Shown here: piece by piece, positions 4,412 through 35,669 of the stretch
Layout of the letters: each line of letters opens with the position of its first letter
Position numbering within the stretch: the first letter of the stretch is position 1
Made by a program: the position numbers and the translations under genes
The notes under the pieces: model-generated
What the model saw: only the letters and a program-made list of their open reading frames with translations
Told to the model about the DNA's origin: nothing
The model's database searches: none
NCBI RefSeq assembly: GCF_021028975.2
Contig: NC_059436.1
Location: forward strand, 25,048,001-25,112,000
From: Sphaerodactylus townsendi
Taxonomy: Eukaryota
Reading direction: 5' to 3'
DNA: 64,000 nt

Positions 4412-7400
4412 TGGTGGGTGGAGCTACAAATAAGAGGTGTTTAGCAAGCCCATAGGACACTGTAGGTCAGTCAAGACTGCTTCATCTCCCAGTAGAACCT
4501 CTGAGATGCCTTGATACTGGGAGAAGGCAGAAACCCAGCCCCTGCCTGGAAAAACACAGGAGGGCTGCTGGATCAGATAGGGGAACCCTCTGCCTTCTGA
4601 ACTGGCAGCTGCTTCTCACATTCAGAGGGCAGGGCAATTCTTCTCTGGAAACAGCTGAGGGAGCCGCGGGCTCCTCCACGGAGCATTTCTCTCTGACCAC
4701 CAAGTGACACCCCCGTCCCTGCAGCAATGTCTGCTAAGGGCTGGTCTGTTTGTTTTACTCAGGTGTAACACATTGCGCTAAGAATTCTCAGGTGAATTAA
4801 CGGGGAAGGTAAATTTAGCACAAATAGATGTAAATAACTTCACAGCATGGCTTGCCTTCAGCCTGCGGGAAGCGGCAGGAGGCTGTAAAGTTAAATGTAG
4901 CTGGATTTAAAGAGGATGGCATGATTTTACAGCCAATAATAATATTACTGGCTGGAAATCCCAGGATAGGAGAAAGGCAGCCTCTAGCAAGCTTTGGTTT
5001 CAAGAAGGCTTCTTGATCACTCAGAAAGAGAGAGAAGAGATCAAGGCTGTCTCCTACTAGGGCTGATCAACCTCCCTGCCCAATTGTTTTGGCAAAAAGG
5101 GAGGGCAAGTTCACCCCACCCCACCCCCACTCACTCTGTTGCACCTAAATAACATTTGTGGCACTGACTGAGTCACCGAGGAGGGTGTGGGACTGGAGAA
5201 ATGTCCTCGGTGGCTTAACACAGGAGATGATGCCAAGGAATATTAAGTTGCGCTCTCTTAAGTCTTCCTTCTGTCTCCCAAATCTGGCATGATTTCTGCC
5301 TTTGTTTCATTCCCCCACTGGCCTCCAAGGAATCTGGACTTTCCTGTAAGGATGTCTTGCCTTCGAAATTAAGCTGTCAGTTATTAGGGAGGAAGGATAG
5401 GAATGGAACTTCCAGCTTCAGAGGCAGGATACCTCCAATTATTAATTTAAAGAACAAACCAGAAGTGGAGCATCTCCATCCAGTCCTGTTTGTGGGTTCC
5501 CCATCTTCTGTCCTGGACCTGTTGGAGACAAAAATATGGGTGCCAACACAGTTCACCCATGACAGCTGCACAAACTCTGCTTTGGGGGACAGCAGAACAG
5601 TTCAAATGTTTTAGCTTTTTTATCCATTATATTGATTTTTTAAAAACTGGGTTGTTTTCATATGTGCCTTTTATGGTTTCTGTTGCACAGCCAGGCCATT
5701 TGAGCAGACTAAAATGCACCAAAAAAGAAGAAAACAAATCCATTAAGTAATGAAATAATGAACCCTGTGCTTCTGTGGCTCCGCGCAGTGCTTGAGAGAG
5801 TGGATGAAGTCTGGCCCTGTGAAGGCACCAGCCGGCCATCTCCGGAGGGGCCTCTGCCCTTCTGCCCTTGATGTAATTACAAGCAGCAGACACTGCATTT
5901 AGAGACATGCTGCCCATAGAGGCGGGGGATTATTTGGGGTGTACATTTCTAATCAGAAGCAGGAAACGGGGGCTGTCTGCTCTGAGCCCAGGCACTACAT
6001 CTGCGGCCCCTGGAGGTTGTGTGTTTGCAACTCAGAGAAGTTCCCCACTCAGCAAACAACCCGAAGACAAACGGCCAACAAAGCCCCACCCTGGTGCCCT
6101 GCAGCGGCCTCCAGAGGAGCTGGCCCCATGCCCTGTGCGGCAGACCCTGCTCAGCCGTCTCCTATGGGACAGATGCTGTCCTCTTCCACCATTCAGTAGT
6201 ACCTGTGTTGACCTTCCCATTGGCACAGGTATGTAAACAGAGCAGCTCTCAACAGATAGTGAAACACAAGCTCTGCAAAAGGAAGATCCTGGCTTTGGTC
6301 TAAAGGGATCCAGTGAGAAAGATTTGACTGCAAACCCCCAGCACCCCCTGCCAGACAATGCTGAGCTGGGCCACACCCCGCGTTTAGGGGAAGCAGGAGT
6401 CCAGCCATGGGGAGAAACCTGGCAGCTGCACTTCTCTCACTTGGCACAAGGACAGGGAGGCCCAAGACCCCCCCCCCCAAAAAAAATAATCCAAAACATT
6501 CCATTTCGCATCTGTTAAATGCAAAATGTTGCAAAAATTCAGATCGGTGTATCTGAACGGTCACTGGTGAGATCTGCATCTTGTCACCCACATCCTGTGG
6601 TGAGCCCTTCTGCCAAAGGGAACTGGTAGAGTGGAGCACCCTGAAGGCGAGCAGCCGGGACAGGGAGGGGGGAGTCAAGGTCAGCAGGAGGAATTCCTCT
6701 TTTCCTCTTCAGGATTCCTTGGAGAGGGGGAGGCCCAAATCAAGGCAGGAGGATTTGTCTTGGGGGTGGGGGAAGCGGGAAAGCATTTGTATGCTCTGCC
6801 GTGCCCTTGCGATTGAATTTATAACATCCTCCATCTTGTCCTTTGTGAATTCCTGAAAACACCTTTGTGAAACCCCATCCCACAGACCAATATGAGAACT
6901 GCAGCATTTCAATCAGGCTTCTGAATACGCCGCAAACAGTTGCGCAGGCAGCTGTTACTCCCTGGCGTTTGCCGTTGCACGCTTCAGTACAGTTTGCGGA
7001 GTCTATTTACCACATCTAAGACTGATTTCCTTCCTTTCAGCTGCTTTGAAGATAATTGAAGGTACCTGCATTGTCTGCCTGTGAATGTTACCATAAAAAA
7101 ACCCCAACAGCTAATGCTGCAATCGATGTCTCTTCGTTAAGGCTGCTCCTCCACTGGCGTCGAACGCCATGTAACAAAGGTTTGGAATGACTGGATCAGC
7201 AAATTGTCACCGGCCGGCTACTTGGTTAATCACAGGAGGCCCTGCAAAGAGCCCCGGTCCTTTTGATAATGCAAGGCGTATTGAATTGTTAAGGCTAAAT
7301 TAAATATTTAATAGGAAATTTTGCAAAAATGGCAATTTTCCCCCTTCCAATTAAACAAGCAAGGCATGAAAGAGAGAGACAGGAATTGTGCTGTGCCCAG

Positions 7401-28670: not shown

Positions 28671-30081
28671 CTATCCTGCAACACGGGAGGATGAGTTGGG
28701 GAAAGGAGAGGCGGTGTTGGCCTGATCTCTTGGCTGCTGGCGCTCACTCAGTGAGAGGGGGGCCTTGCTGCTGTTTGGCTTCATGTTGTATCAATCCTCA
28801 GCAACCGCCTTTGCTCTACCCTCCCGGTGTTGGTTTTGATCTCACAATGAAGCGTGAGTCTCCAGCGATGTTGACTTTGGGATTTAATATATAAGGCCAT
28901 TGTAAATCATTTATTTCATTTCCTTGGCAAGGTCTTCATCTGTTGTGACTTGGAGAGAAGAAAAGGTGGCCGATGTCCGTAAGCAACAATGTTTGCTGAG
29001 AGCAAATATTTGTACATGAGAAATGGCGTGTGTGGCATGGCCACATTGTGTACCGACAAGGCTGTGGCCTCATCCAAAATTACCTTTGCTCTGAGATCCC
29101 TGACCTAAAGCAACTCCCCCCCCTCCCTCCCACAAGAGCAGCTCTTGCAGCTCCAAGACAGGCATGCCAATCAAGTTGAGTGGCAGAGCAGGTATGTGAC
29201 CTGACCTCCCTCTGCTGGATGGAGAGGGAACAGCAGCTGCTGGGAGTCATCTATTTGGCTGGACAATGCTGACTTAGCACATTTTTTAACAAAACTCCAC
29301 AATAGAAGTTATCTCATCAGAATATTCATTGTATGTGAGATAAACCATCAAGAATGGAAAATGCACTTTGCTCAGTCATTTCACAGAAGTTCCCTCCCAT
29401 TGCAATAAAAGTCCAGCCAGTTTAGTATTTTATTTGTATTATTGTTTTATTACTGCTGTACAATACCGTGAAGCTGTGGGGAGTGGCGTGTGAATTACTC
29501 AGCCCATAAAATGTGCTTCCTTTGCTCAGCCATCCGAGCAACAAAGGCCTCACAGTCTAGGTCTCTAAGACCAACTCACACAGACAAAACAACTCAAGAA
29601 AAAGTCATCTAAAGCCCAAAATAGCTGAGATTGGTTAGAGTCTGAAATCACATGTTAGGATTTGTAAAACAGGTTCTGTCGAGTTCTTAGAGACTGCAGT
29701 GAATAAAGAAGTCCAAGTCTCAGTTTAAGCCAGGATGAAATGTAGCACTGAATTTTTTATATAAATTCTAATTCTGCACTTCCATGTTGTATATTGCATG
29801 TTGTGACTCTCAAATCTATAATGGTAATTCCAGGGAGATGAACATTTTCACCTACAGGTTTCTGGGTTTTATGATTTCTTATGTCCAGTAAGCATATAAC
29901 CTGTTCATCCAGTGTGGAGATGGTAGGAGGGTATTACTGTGGTTTGGTGGCATATCTTAAATTGAATTATATGCTAGTGGAGAGCCCAGGATCATGTTGC
30001 AGGTGGTGTTGGGTTCCACAAGAGTTTTGCCTGTGTGAGTTGTGAGTTTCACTTATGAAAGCTCAGACTGAAATAAGTGTT

Positions 30082-30277
30082 AGGGTGTTGTGGGTTTTCT
30101 GGATTGTATGGCCATGTTCTAGTAGCATTCTCTCCTAACTTTTTGCCTGCATCTGTGGTGGTGCCAGCCACAGATGCAGACAAAACATCAAAAGAGAATA
30201 CTACTGGAACACGACCATACAACCTAGAAAGCCCACAACACCCTAGTGATTCTGGCCATGAAAGCCTTCAACAATAC
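30082..30277 (+). mobile_element. Penelope-derived palindromic element
   Basis: Inverted 5' part plus forward terminus ...gccatgaaagccttcaacaatac. 15-bp TSD actgaaataagtgtt at 30067-30081 and 30278-30292. Confidence 0.85.
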
Positions 30278-30298
30278 ACTGAAATAAGTGTTGTTAAC

Positions 30299-31231
30299 CA
30301 GGGATCCCCAAACTTTTTAAACAGGGGGCCAGTTCACTGTCCCTCAGACTGTTGGAGGGCCGGACTAAAAAAAACTATGAACAAATTCCTATGCACAAAT
30401 GATTGTAAAATGTTTGATTTCACCTTTCAGCCTTTCTGTCATGGTCTATGTTTAGAACAGTGACCAAAGTATGTCAAGTACAGGGTGGGCTCCAAATATT
30501 GTTGGGGAGGCTGTGGAATACCTTCCCCTGTAAAAAAAAAATGCAGAATCCTTTTCCCAATGAAGCATTCCATCTAAACCCCAGGATGCAGGTATCTTCC
30601 TGGGTTCTCTTCCCCAGCAGCCAGTGAGCCATTCGGCAGCCCCTGGCTGATGCCAATGGGGAGAAGCACCCAGAATAAGCCTCGGAGAGCACACACATGG
30701 AGTAGCCGAGAGAGAAGGGCGGAGCAGGCATTGCCACATGTAAGGTTTCCAACTCTGGGTCAGAAAATTCATGGAGATTTGGGGGTGCAATCTGAGAAAG
30801 GCAGAGTTTGGGGTGGGGAGCCACCATCCAAAGTAGTCATTTTCTCTAGGAATTGATCTCTGTCACCTGGAGGTCCGCTGTAATTCTGGGACATCTCCAG
30901 GTCTCCCCTAGAGGTTGGCAACTCTTACATAGAGGTAATATCCACAAATATGTCTCCTGCCTGTGATCAGCAATGTTTAGAAAGGGGCATCCAAGGACAG
31001 GAAATCCACACCCGCTTTGCTTCCCTCCCCGCCGACTGAAGAGGAGTCACCCTCTTCGCTCCCCCGATCCTTTGTGCTGGTGGTGGGGCAGGCAAGCCCC
31101 TTGCGCCAGAGGGGCCGATTCCTCCTCTCCCTCGAGCCCCCACTGCACGTGAATGGAGCCATTGCCGCCATGCCTGGCGGGCCAGATAAATGCCTTCAGG
31201 GGGCCCCCGGGCCGTAGTTTGGGGTCCCCTG
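30299..31231. mobile_element. Non-autonomous hAT-Charlie element resembling OposCharlie1 (OC1)
   Basis: Ends CAGGGATCCCCAAACTTTTTAAACAGGGGGCCAGTTCACTG and GGGCCGTAGTTTGGGGTCCCCTG. Flanking duplication gttgttaac at 30290-30298 and 31232-31240. The OC1 assignment is from memory. Confidence 0.8.
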
Positions 31232-31729
31232 GTTGTTAACTCTGTTATAATGTAGGTAACTGTGACTTTGTTGATGCTCCCTTGGTGAATTACATAATTA
31301 ATTTAACATGATCCTTTAAGGAAAAGGCATTTGTTTTAGTTTGACTTTCCACTAGTTCTGTGGCCAGCTGTGGCCTAAAGCAGGACCCAAAGCAGGCTTT
31401 GCCGAAGTTCTAATAAAGTCCTGTTCTGTTTTGGTACCGGGTGTAGAGGAGTTCTTACAAAGTCTTGAAGGTTCCAGTGGCCTTTTTGTGTTGTTTTGCT
31501 GCAACAGACTAACACGGATACCAGATTTTCTCTGTGTGCTGAGTTTGCACTGACTTTTTCATGGTTCATCTTTTAACAATGAGCAGTTAACAACTGCTAT
31601 GATTATATTTTTTTAATGCTGATGGTACTTATTAAATGTTTATAAACAATATTCATTTTGAATCAGTTTGTCACATATTCCAGTTGTATTCTTTAAGGAC
31701 CAGTGGCTTGCATTTTTATTTCTAGATTA

Positions 31730-31960
31730 NNNNNNNNNNNNNNNNNNNNNNNNNNNNNNNNNNNNNNNNNNNNNNNNNNNNNNNNNNNNNNNNNNNNNNN
31801 NNNNNNNNNNNNNNNNNNNNNNNNNNNNNNNNNNNNNNNNNNNNNNNNNNNNNNNNNNNNNNNNNNNNNNNNNNNNNNNNNNNNNNNNNNNNNNNNNNNN
31901 NNNNNNNNNNNNNNNNNNNNNNNNNNNNNNNNNNNNNNNNNNNNNNNNNNNNNNNNNNNT
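31730..31960. other. Assembly gap
   Basis: Run of N. Confidence 1.
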
Positions 31961-32743
31961 GTAACAAACATACATGCAAATATTGATGATGCTGTGATAT
32001 GAGTGTTTGCATGAATATTCTTGGGCGTGGTGTTTCACAGAAGTACCCATGAATGACTATCTGTCATTCACTTGAATCCCACCTCTGGAACATGCTAATC
32101 CCCCAACATGCCCCACCCAGGCAAATCACTTCTTGTTCTCTTCCTCTTGCCTTGATCTTTCCTGGCCATATTCCAACAGAGGCCCTGTCACCCTTCTTGT
32201 CCCTCAAATAATTCCCCATCTGCTTTGAGCTGCAGGGGTGCCTTTTTCCTTTGACTGTCTGGACCTTGGTATCGTGACACCTCTGTTCTTTCTTGCCTGT
32301 GATTTACCGTCTGCTCCTTCACCTCTTTCCTTTCTTGCAGCATTTTTACATTTCCCATCATAAATCCAGCACATCCAAATGATCCTGATCTTAAGGGTCT
32401 CCTTTAATTTGCACAAAGTGGGTGACCCGTGCTCTCGTGAGAACCATCATCGCTCTGTGTTGGGCTGGCTCCCTTTCCCTTTTCGCGTCATAAATCCACC
32501 ATCTCTGCCTGACAGGGTCGCAGCCTTGATACTCTAATTGCACATTATGCTCCAGGAGAATTGGCAATCCTGATTCTGCCACTCATTCATGGGAACTGTC
32601 ACTCTGCCTGTCCCTGAGATGAAAGGCAACCTCTGGGGGGAAAAGAGCCCTTGGCAGGCAAAAAAGTGAGATGCCATGATGGCTTTCAAAGGGCAGTGTG
32701 GCCGACTGCGGAGTGACAGGGTTGAGAACACAGGGAGGCATTT

Positions 32744-32764
32744 GCTGCTGCTGCTGCTGCTGCT
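32744..32764. repeat. (GCT)7 microsatellite
   Basis: Read directly from the sequence. Confidence 0.9.
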
Positions 32765-33344
32765 TTTGCAAGTGACCCACCTGGAAGAAGTTTCCAATGC
32801 CAGGTAACTCAGTCATGACTTAGAAGCAATTCCCTCTCGCCCTGCAAAGGGGCTGACTCCCAGGTAAGTGGAGTTGGACAGGCTTGAAGAATTCTGTGAC
32901 TCCCCTGAGCCCCCTCCCCAGGAACAGCACACAGAGATGAGGCCAACAATAAAATGCTTGAAAGATGCTAGAATGGAGTGTCCTTTAATTGCCAGTAGCC
33001 AACATGAGCTTTTTAATCGAAAAATAGCAATAAATAATAAAATACCGGTAGATATATTTGGGAGGCAGGGAGCCAGCAGGCCTATGAGATTCCTTTGGGG
33101 ATGGGTGAGGCTCCATTTCTTGCTAACAAAAGGGTGAGGAATGCCCGGGAGGAAACAGAACCAACTCTGTTCCAGACCAGATCCAGGATAAGAAGAGGCA
33201 GTCGGGGGGCAGAGAGAGAAAGGGAGGCAGAGGGTTATCAGGGGTCCCGGCATTCTCCTGCCCAGCCCACTTCAGGCCTCTGGCAGAGACGGGGGGGGGG
33301 GGGAGGACACATTCAGAAGATTCCTCCAGTTTTCTCTCATTTAT

Positions 33345-33570
33345 CAATTCATTCATTTATTGCTCACCTGTTTCCCCAACGCCGCCCCCCCCCCTCCACG
33401 GCTGACATCATTCTCCTGTCCTCCAGCTTATCCTCACAACTGCCTGTGAGTTAGCTTAGGCTGAGAAAGGGCAACTGGACCAAGGTCACCCATCAAGCTT
33501 CCATGGCATATGAGTGCCGATTCGAACCCAGGACTCGGATTCTAGCCCAACACTCTTTACCGCTGCACCC
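33345..33570 (-). mobile_element. Older tRNA/CORE (MIR-like) SINE
   Basis: tatcctcacaac...ccaaggtcaccca...gattcgaacccagg (reverse-complement B box). Confidence 0.7.
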
Positions 33571-34158
33571 CATTGGCTGTTTGCTAAGGAGGAGACTGTT
33601 GCTGACTTTGCCGATGTGTGGGGTGGGGCTCTGGTTTGCTGGTCACACAAAGCCTTCGATTGTGGCTGCACTTCATGTTCCAGCACTGCCCTTTCCCTCG
33701 CGAGAACAGGGCTTGGGCGATGCTGCAGGGAGAGGCAGAGTTCCAGTCAGCATCTCAAACACTTCCATTTATTAAATCCACCAGAAGGTCCCTGAATTAT
33801 GCATTTCCCAGCAATCCAGCTGTTGCTTTTTGTTACATTTAGCTGTCATCAATTTACACATTTTTGTTGCTATACAACATCTCCGTCCCTAAATGCTAAA
33901 ATCCACACATTTGAAAAGTTAGCACATGATAGCAGTTCTGAGATCATATAGGCAGGTCGTATTTAGCCAGCCAAAGAGATGAAATTGGCAGGCAGCCTCC
34001 AATATTAAGTACAAATTCAGAGCACACCAGCAGCCAGAACATTTGAGAGAAAATAAAACAGTGTGTCTCTTAAACAAGTGCGGCGGGAGAGTTCCTGCTC
34101 TAAATGTCATGGGTATCTCCACACAGCTTGAAGAGTCCGTCTTTCAAAGCACCTTGAG

Positions 34159-35048
34159 TCCTACAAATTAGGATGTTGTGGGTTTTTCAGGTTGTATGGC
34201 CGTGTTCCAGTAGCATTTTCTCAAATGTTTTGCCTGCATCTGTGGCTGGTGTCTTCAGAGGAAGATGCCAACCAGATATGCAGGCGAAACATCAGGAGAA
34301 AATGCTACTGGAACACGGCCATACAACCCAGAAAATCCACAACACCCTGGTGATTCTGGCCATGAAAGCCTTCAACAATACATCCTACAAATTAGCCATG
34401 AAAGCCTTCAACAATACACTGAAATAAGTGTTGTTAACTCTGGAACACGGCCATACAACCCGGAAAAACCACAACACCTTAGTGATTCTGGCCATGAAAG
34501 CCTTCAACAATACATCCTACAAATTAGTCATGAAAGCCTTCAACAATACACTGAAATAAGTGTTGTTAACTCTGGAACATGGCCAGTGGTGGGATCCAAA
34601 AATTTTAGTAACAGGTTCCCATGGTGGTGGGATTCAAACTGTGGTGTAACACCAATGAGGCTGGGCAGGGCACGACGGGGGCATGGCCGGGCATTTTGGG
34701 GGTGGGGCATTCCTGGGCAGGGCTGTGGCAAGGAAACAGCCACTGCGCCGGTCCTTGGGCGGGAAACGAATGTATGCAGGCGCAGGCTGCCACGCACTCC
34801 TGCTAGACTGCTTCAAGTTCTGCGTGCTACTGCTGAGAGGAGGGGCGTAACTAAGGCAAAAATCACGTGGCAAAATCACCAATTAGTAACCCCCTCTCGG
34901 CACACACAAATAATTAGTAACCTACTCTCGGGAACCTGTGAGAACCTGCTGGATCCCACCTCTGAACACGGCCATACAACTCGGAAAACTCACAACACTC
35001 TAGTGATTCTGGCCATGAAAGCCTTCAACAATACATCCTACAAATTAG
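34159..35048 (+). mobile_element. Penelope-derived palindromic element expanded into 132-bp chimeric tandem units
   Basis: tcctacaaattag occurs at 34159, 34383, 34515 and 35036. Inverted arm 34172-34261, forward arm 34262-34382. Unit period is 132 bp. Confidence 0.9.
34584..34964 (+). mobile_element. hAT MITE nested in the Penelope-derived array
   Basis: TIRs CAGTGGTGGGATCC and GGATCCCACCTCTG. TSD aacatggc/aacacggc (7 of 8). Confidence 0.9.
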
Positions 35049-35669
35049 TTCGACGTGTCACTACTTCCCCTTCTTCATCCCTCCATCAATGGATCCAGGA
35101 CTACGCCTTCTTCCTTCCACTGAGGTTGGTGGAAGAAACGGGGGCTTCATCTGGAGGCAGCGCTGGGCTTCTTCTAGCTTTGTGGTTTTGTTCAGCTAAT
35201 TCAGCTTTGTATTTGAATCAGATTCCTCTCCAATTTTCTTCTCTAAATGTAGCAGCTGCTGAGGTCGTGGAGTGGCACAGGTGGGAGAATCTCATAATGG
35301 ATGGTGTTCAGAAGGGTGAGGAATTCTCCTTGAGGGAGTCGGGTCTGAATAATGCTCAGATTTGTGCGGGGGGGGGAGGGGGGCTGTCAGAATGAGAAGC
35401 TGTTTCAAAATGCCCACCTCTGGGACTGTGGCTGCTTTCATAAAAAGCCATGCGGCCGTCACTGTTTACGGCTGTCTCCTAAGGAGGATCTGGCCTGGAT
35501 GCTGGTTTGCCTCAGCTGACCACCTAGCTCTTCAGGACAAGATCTTTAGAGATTCCTCAGGAATCTCTACTGTGAGGACCGAAGTAGATGGGAAGGAGCC
35601 CTTGCGGCCCCATGAGGAAGCTGTTGTCCATTTGAAAGTGAGTTTAATTTAAACCCCTTGTAGCAAGTC

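What the first reader, a model, noticed from the sequence alone, without database searches (positions are those of the whole stretch)
30067..35048. Chimeric tandem array: one Penelope-derived copy carries the unique flank of another copy 4 kb away
Seen: the 30 kb element has TSD actgaaataagtgtt, followed by gttaac. The 34 kb element has its own TSD, tcctacaaattag. After its first terminus the 34 kb locus twice reads: own TSD, then ccatgaaagccttcaacaatac, then actgaaataagtgttgttaactc (34418-34440 and 34550-34572, the 30 kb locus flank), then re-entry into the element at tggaacacggcc. The period is 132 bp and the 34 kb TSD occurs four times. Inference: repeated template switching between two neighbouring homologous copies, either by Penelope RT template jumps or by microhomology-mediated repair or replication (ctg is shared at the re-entry junction). 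A single switch followed by tandem duplication also fits.
Basis: partly seen in the sequence, partly recalled or inferred. Interest (0 to 1): 0.7.

Follow-up and report, generated by a model that had tools for sequence, protein, structure and literature searches.

The report
Repair scar linking two Penelope copies
The end of one Penelope-type jumping-gene copy is repeated three times, with a 44-base piece of a sister copy's end and its unique neighbouring DNA from 4 kb away between the repeats; this is real, shared with related animals, and likely a DNA-repair scar made long after both insertions, a known kind of accident.

Summary
Observation confirmed. An 88-bp block (pLTR end, tail, TSD) of the 34-kb Penelope stub is present three times, separated by two 44-bp pieces copied from the 30-kb sister copy (22 nt tail, its TSD, flank). 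The diagnostic 21-mer occurs only 3 times in 1.81 Gb, all here. Short-read contigs of four other runs carry array junctions, including two related organisms 2.0-2.7% diverged, so it is no mis-assembly. The copied flank runs across the site where a DNA transposon later inserted. The three repeats share two CpG decays and diverge star-like; a rough clock puts the array at 0.4-0.55 of the element's age, which argues against reverse-transcriptase jumps during the original insertion. One junction lies within 1 nt of the TSD end, and younger Penelope copies have re-inserted at old tail/TSD junctions elsewhere in this genome, so a later re-cut is the likely trigger. Best reading: break repair with a short back-slip, a homology-guided hop to the neighbour, a 3-nt microhomology return, then early doubling. 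Not seen at 130 other tails. The scan noted related Penelope captures of nearby DNA before, between the two arms, on other DNA. Known class of event.

The parts
30067..30081 (+). Left TSD of the 30-kb Penelope stub (15 bp)
30082..30277 (.). 30-kb stub: inverted left arm (about 30082-30160), sense right arm and 33-nt tail ending 30277; CTAG subfamily
   Evidence: 78% identical over 220 nt to the end of an ORF-bearing copy
30256..30298 (+). Source of the captured piece, first part: last 22 nt of tail, right TSD (30278-30292), gttaac
   Evidence: 44/44 and 42/42 identical to the array pieces
30299..31231 (.). 933-bp later insertion with short terminal inverted repeats and a 9-bp duplication (gttgttaac); hAT-like label is recalled, not tested; inferred absent in organism H
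31232..31244 (+). Right duplication copy and tctg: the end of the captured flank, with the ctg microhomology at 31242-31244
34159..34171 (+). Left TSD of the 34-kb stub (TSD34 copy 1, 13 bp)
34172..34382 (.). 34-kb stub: inverted left arm (34172-34260), right arm and tail; strong hairpin; CTAG subfamily
   Evidence: z = -13; 81% identical over 218 nt to the end of an ORF-bearing copy
34308..34395 (+). Repeat u1 (88 bp): pLTR end from ctg, tail, TSD34 copy 2 (34383-34395)
34396..34439 (+). Captured piece 1 (44 bp): 22 nt tail, TSD30, gttaact
   Evidence: junction contigs in runs X10, X12, X13, X14
34440..34527 (+). Repeat u2 (88 bp) with TSD34 copy 3 (34515-34527)
34528..34571 (+). Captured piece 2 (44 bp; one C>T at 34528)
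34572..34583 (+). Repeat u3, left part, with left copy of the 8-bp duplication (34576-34583)
34584..34964 (.). 381-bp non-autonomous DNA-transposon-type insertion with 8-bp duplication (hAT-like label recalled); 1.2% non-CpG from its consensus; sets a minimum age for the switch
   Evidence: inferred present in organisms G, H, C
34965..35048 (+). Repeat u3, right part, tail and TSD34 copy 4 (35036-35048), followed by unique flank

Best explanation
The array is likely a DNA-repair scar made long after both Penelope stubs had inserted: an 88-bp duplication of the 34-kb copy's end with a 44-bp piece templated from the sister copy 4.1 kb away, then doubled. Shown: anatomy, source of the piece, reality in other genomes, and order (switch, then the 381-bp insertion, then the species splits and the 933-bp insertion). 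Inferred: a break left a 3' end at the right edge of TSD34; this end slipped back 36 nt into the tail (1-nt microhomology), moved in register to the 30-kb copy through the identical tail (at least 23 nt), copied its TSD and about 10 nt of flank, and was joined at ctg to a second copy of the 34-kb pLTR end; the 132-bp unit then doubled soon afterwards by slippage or unequal exchange, or in a second round of the same repair. The break was more likely than not (about 60:40) a re-cut of the reconstituted target by a younger Penelope endonuclease whose insertion aborted; otherwise a spontaneous break or fork stall beside the hairpin. No function is proposed.
For: Unique source 4.1 kb away in the same orientation. 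Microhomologies of 1 and 3 nt; 33 identical nt between the two tails. u1-u3 share two CpG decays against the subfamily consensus and no non-CpG change; private changes 3, 2, 3. Those decays are not a fixed subfamily state: 13 of 100 listed CTAG tails have both, 15 of 100 have neither (counted by eye). Likelihood peaks at 0.40-0.55 of the element's age in all 4 settings; ln-likelihood drop to 'at insertion' is 1.6-4.8 if the source RNA had a 35% chance per site of being already decayed, 4.1-7.6 at 5%. The two stubs differ at position 38 in both arms, so they likely came from different RNAs. u2 and u3 copy this locus's own decayed sequence, not a young element's RNA. A younger subfamily was active at the right time: 2.4% non-CpG, 28% CpG decay, against about 5% and 71% for the CTAG subfamily. 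Of 50 loci examined (of 77 pattern hits), 19 have a real tail just before a second element; in L133, L137, L187, L188 a young element's TSD starts at or within 2 nt of an older subfamily's tail end, and L137 has the same TSD three times. Precedents: tandem duplications with microhomology and occasional templated inserts from failed SDSA, and patchwork inserts from iterative priming (PMC8654963, passages); duplications at breaks with 3' overhangs (PMC5730883, passages); MMBIR (PMC4888836, passages).
Against: Non-CpG changes alone do not exclude formation at insertion (ln-likelihood drop 0.1-2.6); the timing rests mostly on two CpG sites and few changes. Private changes cluster oddly: 8 in positions 66-87, about 1 in tails, TSDs and captured pieces, which may mean gene conversion has lowered the apparent age. 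The junction at the TSD end is also what an insertion-time event predicts. The nuclease trigger is an inference from one coincidence (roughly 2 in 100 for one preset boundary, far less striking after allowing four breakpoints and several landmarks). The first 22 nt of the captured piece cannot be assigned to either copy, so the back-slip plus in-register hop is one parse among several. DNA and RNA templates cannot be told apart from sequence. Contig depth for two units in the relatives is mixed: about 2.8x on the shared unitig in X13, but about 1x on the re-entry contigs in X13 and X14; the TSD34-to-tail junction was laid only in X10 and X12.
Confidence: 0.65

Rival explanations
1. The array formed during the original insertion of the 34-kb stub: second-strand synthesis or the element's reverse transcriptase reached the end of the TSD gap, jumped to the pre-existing 30-kb copy and back.
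For: Junction within 1 nt of the TSD end; everything lies inside the outermost TSD copies; no shared non-CpG change among u1-u3; PAc cuts and extends both strands (PMC11167929, main text read); L1 insertion ends yield templated insertions and template switches (PMC11702581, passages).
Against: Needs a source RNA already decayed at both tail CpGs; private divergence (about 2% non-CpG, 1 of 6 CpG sites) is well below the arms' full-age divergence; likelihood favours 0.4-0.55 of the age. The ordinary central arm junction is intact, unlike the between-arm captures noted elsewhere in the scan.
Confidence: 0.15
2. A later Penelope protein re-cut the site and its reverse transcriptase, lacking its own RNA, copied host read-through transcripts of the two local stubs, jumping between them.
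For: Fits late timing, the junction at the TSD end and re-insertion at old junctions. Short reiterations at tails occur (L002 tail duplication; L135). Template jumps on read-through transcripts were proposed for Adineta Penelope (PMC3846280, passages).
Against: Neither switch point lies at the two known RT start sites that bound the tail; the two ends would need transcripts of opposite strands; no host gene or RNA run was found for this window; 0 of 130 other tails show the pattern.
Confidence: 0.12
3. Two separate late accidents: first a plain 36-bp duplication of tail end plus TSD, later a one-sided homologous invasion of the 30-kb copy finished by end joining.
For: Gives the same product; explains why the neighbour's tail, not random DNA, was used (33 identical nt).
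Against: Needs an extra rare step: tail-gap-tail with a 10-16-nt gap gave only 5 hits genome-wide, 2 in this array and none other with a TSD between. No intermediate seen.
Confidence: 0.06
4. Assembly artefact or family-consensus sequence.
Against: 21-mer unique to this window; junction contigs with 0-1 differences in four runs and three organism labels; repeats differ by several substitutions; the copied flank no longer exists contiguously at 30 kb in this assembly.
Confidence: 0.02

Closest known systems
Tandem duplications with templated insertions from failed SDSA joined by polymerase theta, and patchwork inserts from iterative priming (Kamp et al. 2021, PMC8654963; passages read)
   Same: About 100-bp direct duplication, microhomology at junctions, insert templated from nearby DNA, repeated pieces
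   Different: There induced or accumulated in repair mutants with break-flanking templates; here a fixed germline event whose template is a homologous retroelement end 4.1 kb away
FoSTeS/MMBIR (review PMC4888836; passages read)
   Same: Several template switches with short microhomology and return to the original template
   Different: Very small scale; one hop can be in register on at least 23 nt of identity
Double insertion of a transposable element at one target site (McGurk and Barbash, bioRxiv 10.1101/158386; passages read; no mention of Penelope)
   Same: TSD preserved between tandem units; old target re-used; dimers can expand by unequal exchange
   Different: Here the added units are copies of local DNA, not a new element; true double insertions of this family occur at other loci (L133, L137, L187, L188)
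Penelope/Poseidon inverted-pLTR insertion with one-sided tail (PAc, PMC11167929, main text read; Adineta Pen2a, PMC3846280, passages)
   Same: Both stubs have inverted arms, a 33-nt tail on one side and 13-15-bp TSDs
   Different: The tail-side array with a neighbour's flank is not part of the described insertion unit; Adineta captures lie between pLTRs
L1 non-canonical insertions with templated pieces and template switches (PMC11702581; passages read)
   Same: Retrotransposon endonuclease ends repaired with borrowed sequence
   Different: Those form at insertion; this one likely formed later

Membership tests
Endonuclease-bearing Penelope-like elements (the two stubs) | Terminal sequence belongs to an element with one ORF encoding reverse transcriptase | tested here: met
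   Stubs are 78-81% identical to the end of L182, whose 837-codon open frame begins in that end and has RVT_1 (E 1e-12)
Endonuclease-bearing Penelope-like elements (the two stubs) | C-terminal GIY-YIG endonuclease in the parent ORF | tested here: inconclusive
   No Pfam hit on the whole ORF or its last 137 aa; a GVY...YIG-like motif is visible by eye (motif recalled)
Endonuclease-bearing Penelope-like elements (the two stubs) | Inverted pLTR with a 30-40-nt tail on one side and TSD | tested here: met
   feature as described in PMC3846280 and PMC11167929
Endonuclease-bearing Penelope-like elements (the two stubs) | Hammerhead ribozyme in the pLTR | tested here: inconclusive
   Rfam found no hammerhead, only sub-threshold hairpin matches; the stubs are truncated and decayed at the core; the full-length copy was not scanned
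Endonuclease-bearing Penelope-like elements (the two stubs) | Phylogenetic placement in the Penelope/Poseidon clade | not tested
   No tree or direct comparison with PAc was made
Tandem duplication with templated insertion (TMEJ/MMBIR type) | Direct duplication with an insert that maps to nearby DNA | tested here: met
   88-bp duplication, 44-bp insert, unique source 4.1 kb away
Tandem duplication with templated insertion (TMEJ/MMBIR type) | Microhomology at junctions | tested here: met
   3 nt and 1 nt; 1 nt is no more than chance
Tandem duplication with templated insertion (TMEJ/MMBIR type) | Made by a host DNA polymerase on DNA | not testable with these tools
   Sequence cannot name the polymerase or tell DNA from RNA templates
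3' transduction by read-through transcription | New insertion carrying the source's flank, bounded by its own new TSD | tested here: not met
   The flank piece has no TSD of its own and is followed by copies of the 34-kb element's own end
Double insertion at one target site | Second unit is a new, independently derived element | tested here: not met
   u2 and u3 share subfamily state and both CpG decays with u1 and have no left arm

The most novel reading that the evidence does not exclude
Penelope proteins return to their old insertion sites, and when they arrive without their own RNA the telomerase-like reverse transcriptase primes on the old TSD and copies host transcripts of neighbouring copies, jumping between them and repeating the round; this array would be a fossil of such a reaction.
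Probability: 0.12. Interest if true: 0.6.

Novelty: new member of a known kind. Interest (0 to 1): 0.3.

Why it matters
As a single locus it is a dated, unusually legible example of how two short retroelement copies a few kb apart exchange sequence: TSDs and two nested insertions give source, order and rough age. The side result matters more: younger Penelope copies re-insert at old tail/TSD junctions, which means old sites stay exposed to the endonuclease and may seed local rearrangements; this is directly testable in the published in vitro system. No effect on a gene is shown.

Tried and rejected
Family-consensus origin of the 23-mer: rejected. Mis-assembly: rejected for the junctions; no long reads were offered, and contig holes are uninformative (X12 lacks a re-entry contig that X10 of the same organism label has). 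Same source RNA for both stubs: first suggested by the shared TG and CA tail states, then dropped, since 13 of 100 subfamily tails have both and the stubs differ at position 38 in both arms. A second microhomology from the t at 34528: dropped; the 59-nt junction contig has c at about 1.5 times single-copy depth and the right-flank contig of X10 starts at 35019, which suggests t is recent (indirect). Close pairs of tails elsewhere with the same flank (L027, L038-L040, L060) look like larger duplications, not captures. Recurrence: 0 of 130 other tails in 1.02 Mb, a sample enriched for well-kept tails, had a neighbour's flank or more than two TSD copies within 1 kb; the genome-wide tail-gap-tail pattern is exact-match and covers only gaps of 10-16 nt. 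Host gene: 93 of 102 long stop-free frames scanned (9 overlapping N left out) gave no Pfam hit above cut-off; transcription direction unknown; no RNA run held the stretch. Snap-back copying from the left arm: rejected, u2 and u3 continue into the tail and lack left-arm variants. No valid chance control for the 77 tail-to-left-arm hits was built; 31 of 50 examined are host sequences that only resemble the tail end. Seven literature searches (listings only) showed no paper on this array type or on same-site re-insertion in Penelope elements; the library lacks most subscription papers and no supplements were read.
Full report
Observation. With two later insertions set aside, the 34-kb locus reads: TSD34, inverted arm, sense arm, tail, TSD34, then twice [22 nt tail, TSD30, gttaact, ctg, pLTR end, tail, TSD34], then unique flank. 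That is three copies of an 88-bp block (u1-u3) with two 44-bp pieces between. The 44-bp pieces match the 30-kb copy at 44/44 and 42/42. The 21-mer TSD30+gttaac occurs 3 times in 1.81 Gb, all here.

What the stubs are. Both are inverted-arm stubs with a 33-nt tail on one side and 13-15-bp TSDs, the structure described for Penelope-like elements (PMC3846280, passages; PMC11167929, abstract and main text, parts 1-2 of 4, where the tail lies between two RT start sites and both strands are cut and extended). They are 78-81% identical to the end of an element with an 837-codon ORF and an RVT_1 match. Pfam did not find the GIY-YIG domain and Rfam found no hammerhead in the stubs. At least 1618 well-kept tails exist in the genome, 235 of the CTAG type to which both stubs belong.

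Reality and order. Contigs of other runs were laid twice. From the unique-flank pieces (summed by hand), X10 differs at 3 of 3578 letters, X14 at 73 of 3562 and X13 at 81 of 3035. X10 and X12 hold a 59-nt contig across TSD34, tail and TSD30 with no difference; X10, X13 and X14 hold contigs across flank and re-entry. All three re-entry contigs stop fitting at 34453, where the 381-bp insertion would begin, so that insertion is inferred in all three organisms. In X13 a contig starts 17 letters before 31232 and a 46-nt unitig ends exactly at ctg at about 2.8 times single-copy depth, which fits a 30-kb locus without the 933-bp insertion; X14 and X10 run into that insertion. No piece bridges a junction by 31 letters on both sides. 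The order is: two Penelope insertions, switch, 381-bp insertion, split of H, 933-bp insertion, split of G and C.

Age. From 72 CTAG tails, 47 were kept as subfamily members (25 dropped as too short or main-family). Non-CpG divergence is 3.2% at A/T and 7.3% at G/C sites, and 71% of CpGs are decayed. The arms of the two stubs are of this age. u1-u3 share two changes, both CpG decays in the tail, and have 3, 2 and 3 private changes; no pair shares one. The decays are not a fixed state of the subfamily (13 of 100 listed tails have both, 15 neither). A simple likelihood puts the array at 0.40-0.55 of the element's age in four settings; the drop to 'at insertion' is 1.6-4.8 ln units with a generous chance of an already decayed source, but only 0.1-2.6 from non-CpG sites alone. 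The 381-bp insertion is 1.2% non-CpG from its consensus, its family mostly 1.2-3.3% (15 other copies, one outlier at 6.7%), a compatible minimum. The stubs differ at position 38 in both arms, so they are likely from different RNAs. The star pattern makes the doubling about as old as the switch.

Junctions. TSD34-to-tail has 1 nt of microhomology and lies at the TSD end; re-entry has ctg, in the middle of a perfect stem of the hairpin. The two tails are identical for 33 nt, so the first 22 captured nt may come from either copy. This allows a parse with a local 36-nt back-slip, an in-register hop to the neighbour and a microhomology return, which explains why the neighbour's tail was used.

Trigger. 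A late break exactly at an old TSD edge needs a cause. Tail, TSD and flank rebuild the original target. A search for a tail end followed in 8-17 nt by the start of a left arm gave 77 hits; of 50 examined (the first 30 listed and 20 chosen for longer gaps), 19 have a real tail upstream. In L133, L137, L187 and L188 a young element's TSD begins at or within 2 nt of an older subfamily's tail end, and L137 has the same TSD three times. The young subfamily (20 copies: 2.4% non-CpG, 28% CpG decay) is of about the array's age. Re-use of a target is known for other elements (bioRxiv 10.1101/158386, passages), and PAc is proposed to nick its own pLTR. That this locus was re-cut is inference.

Frequency. 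None of 130 other tails in 1.02 Mb carries a neighbour's flank or more than two TSD copies; a genome-wide exact pattern for tail, 10-16 nt, tail gave 5 hits, 2 here, one plain tail duplication and two unrelated. The array is a rare accident, not a routine product of the family.

Comparison and verdict. It works like a tandem duplication with templated insertion (PMC8654963; PMC5730883; PMC4888836; passages only). It fails the tests for 3' transduction and for double insertion. Earlier scan notes describe Penelope captures of nearby DNA between the arms (unchecked leads; one pointed me to PMC11702581); none was shown for this place and none held all my words for same-site re-insertion. Late DNA-templated repair 0.65, insertion-time event 0.15, late RT copying of host RNA 0.12, two-step variant 0.06, artefact 0.02. 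New member of a known kind; interest 0.3.

Noticed in passing
L137, L133, L187, L188 (also L150, L135, L184, L189, L131): Young Penelope copies inserted at the right junction of older copies; L137 has one TSD three times around two different subfamilies. Same-subfamily cases may be tandem duplications.
   Followed up: partly
L126-L155, L183-L202: 31 of 50 hits are host sequences ending like the tail (caatac) just before a new insertion, often inside its TSD: a target preference or primer microhomology with the tail end.
   Followed up: partly
L002 near 1500; L135 about 110 nt after the junction; L080: Short reiterations at tail ends (a duplicated tail; aattatac repeated; caata repeated), reminiscent of repeated priming.
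   Followed up: no
window 34214-35395 +: 393-codon stop-free frame across the array, the longest in 264 kb apart from a simple repeat; its start is the element's own ORF frame, which both junctions keep. No Pfam hit; taken as chance.
   Followed up: partly
window 34308-35002, repeat positions 66-87: 8 of about 9 private changes cluster in a 22-nt C-rich stretch, 5 of them non-CpG C>T; the subfamily is only modestly more variable there. Unexplained: deamination of single-stranded DNA or conversion elsewhere.
   Followed up: partly
G000:C12 about 24,982,000-25,002,600 (L009-L011): About 20 kb of a C-rich simple repeat (runs of about 14 C and one A) 46-66 kb upstream of the window; satellite or assembly artefact.
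   Followed up: no
L131: Two tandem copies of an element with many small indels, resembling unpolished long-read sequence.
   Followed up: no
L182:745-3258 +: An open 837-codon Penelope ORF of the youngest subfamily, so the family may be recently active.
   Followed up: partly
window 35049-35054: The flank right of TSD34 begins ttcgac, which also occurs in the undecayed tail; no role found.
   Followed up: no
L035 about 5032-5700: A roughly 670-bp diverged inverted repeat of host DNA begins right after a tail.
   Followed up: no
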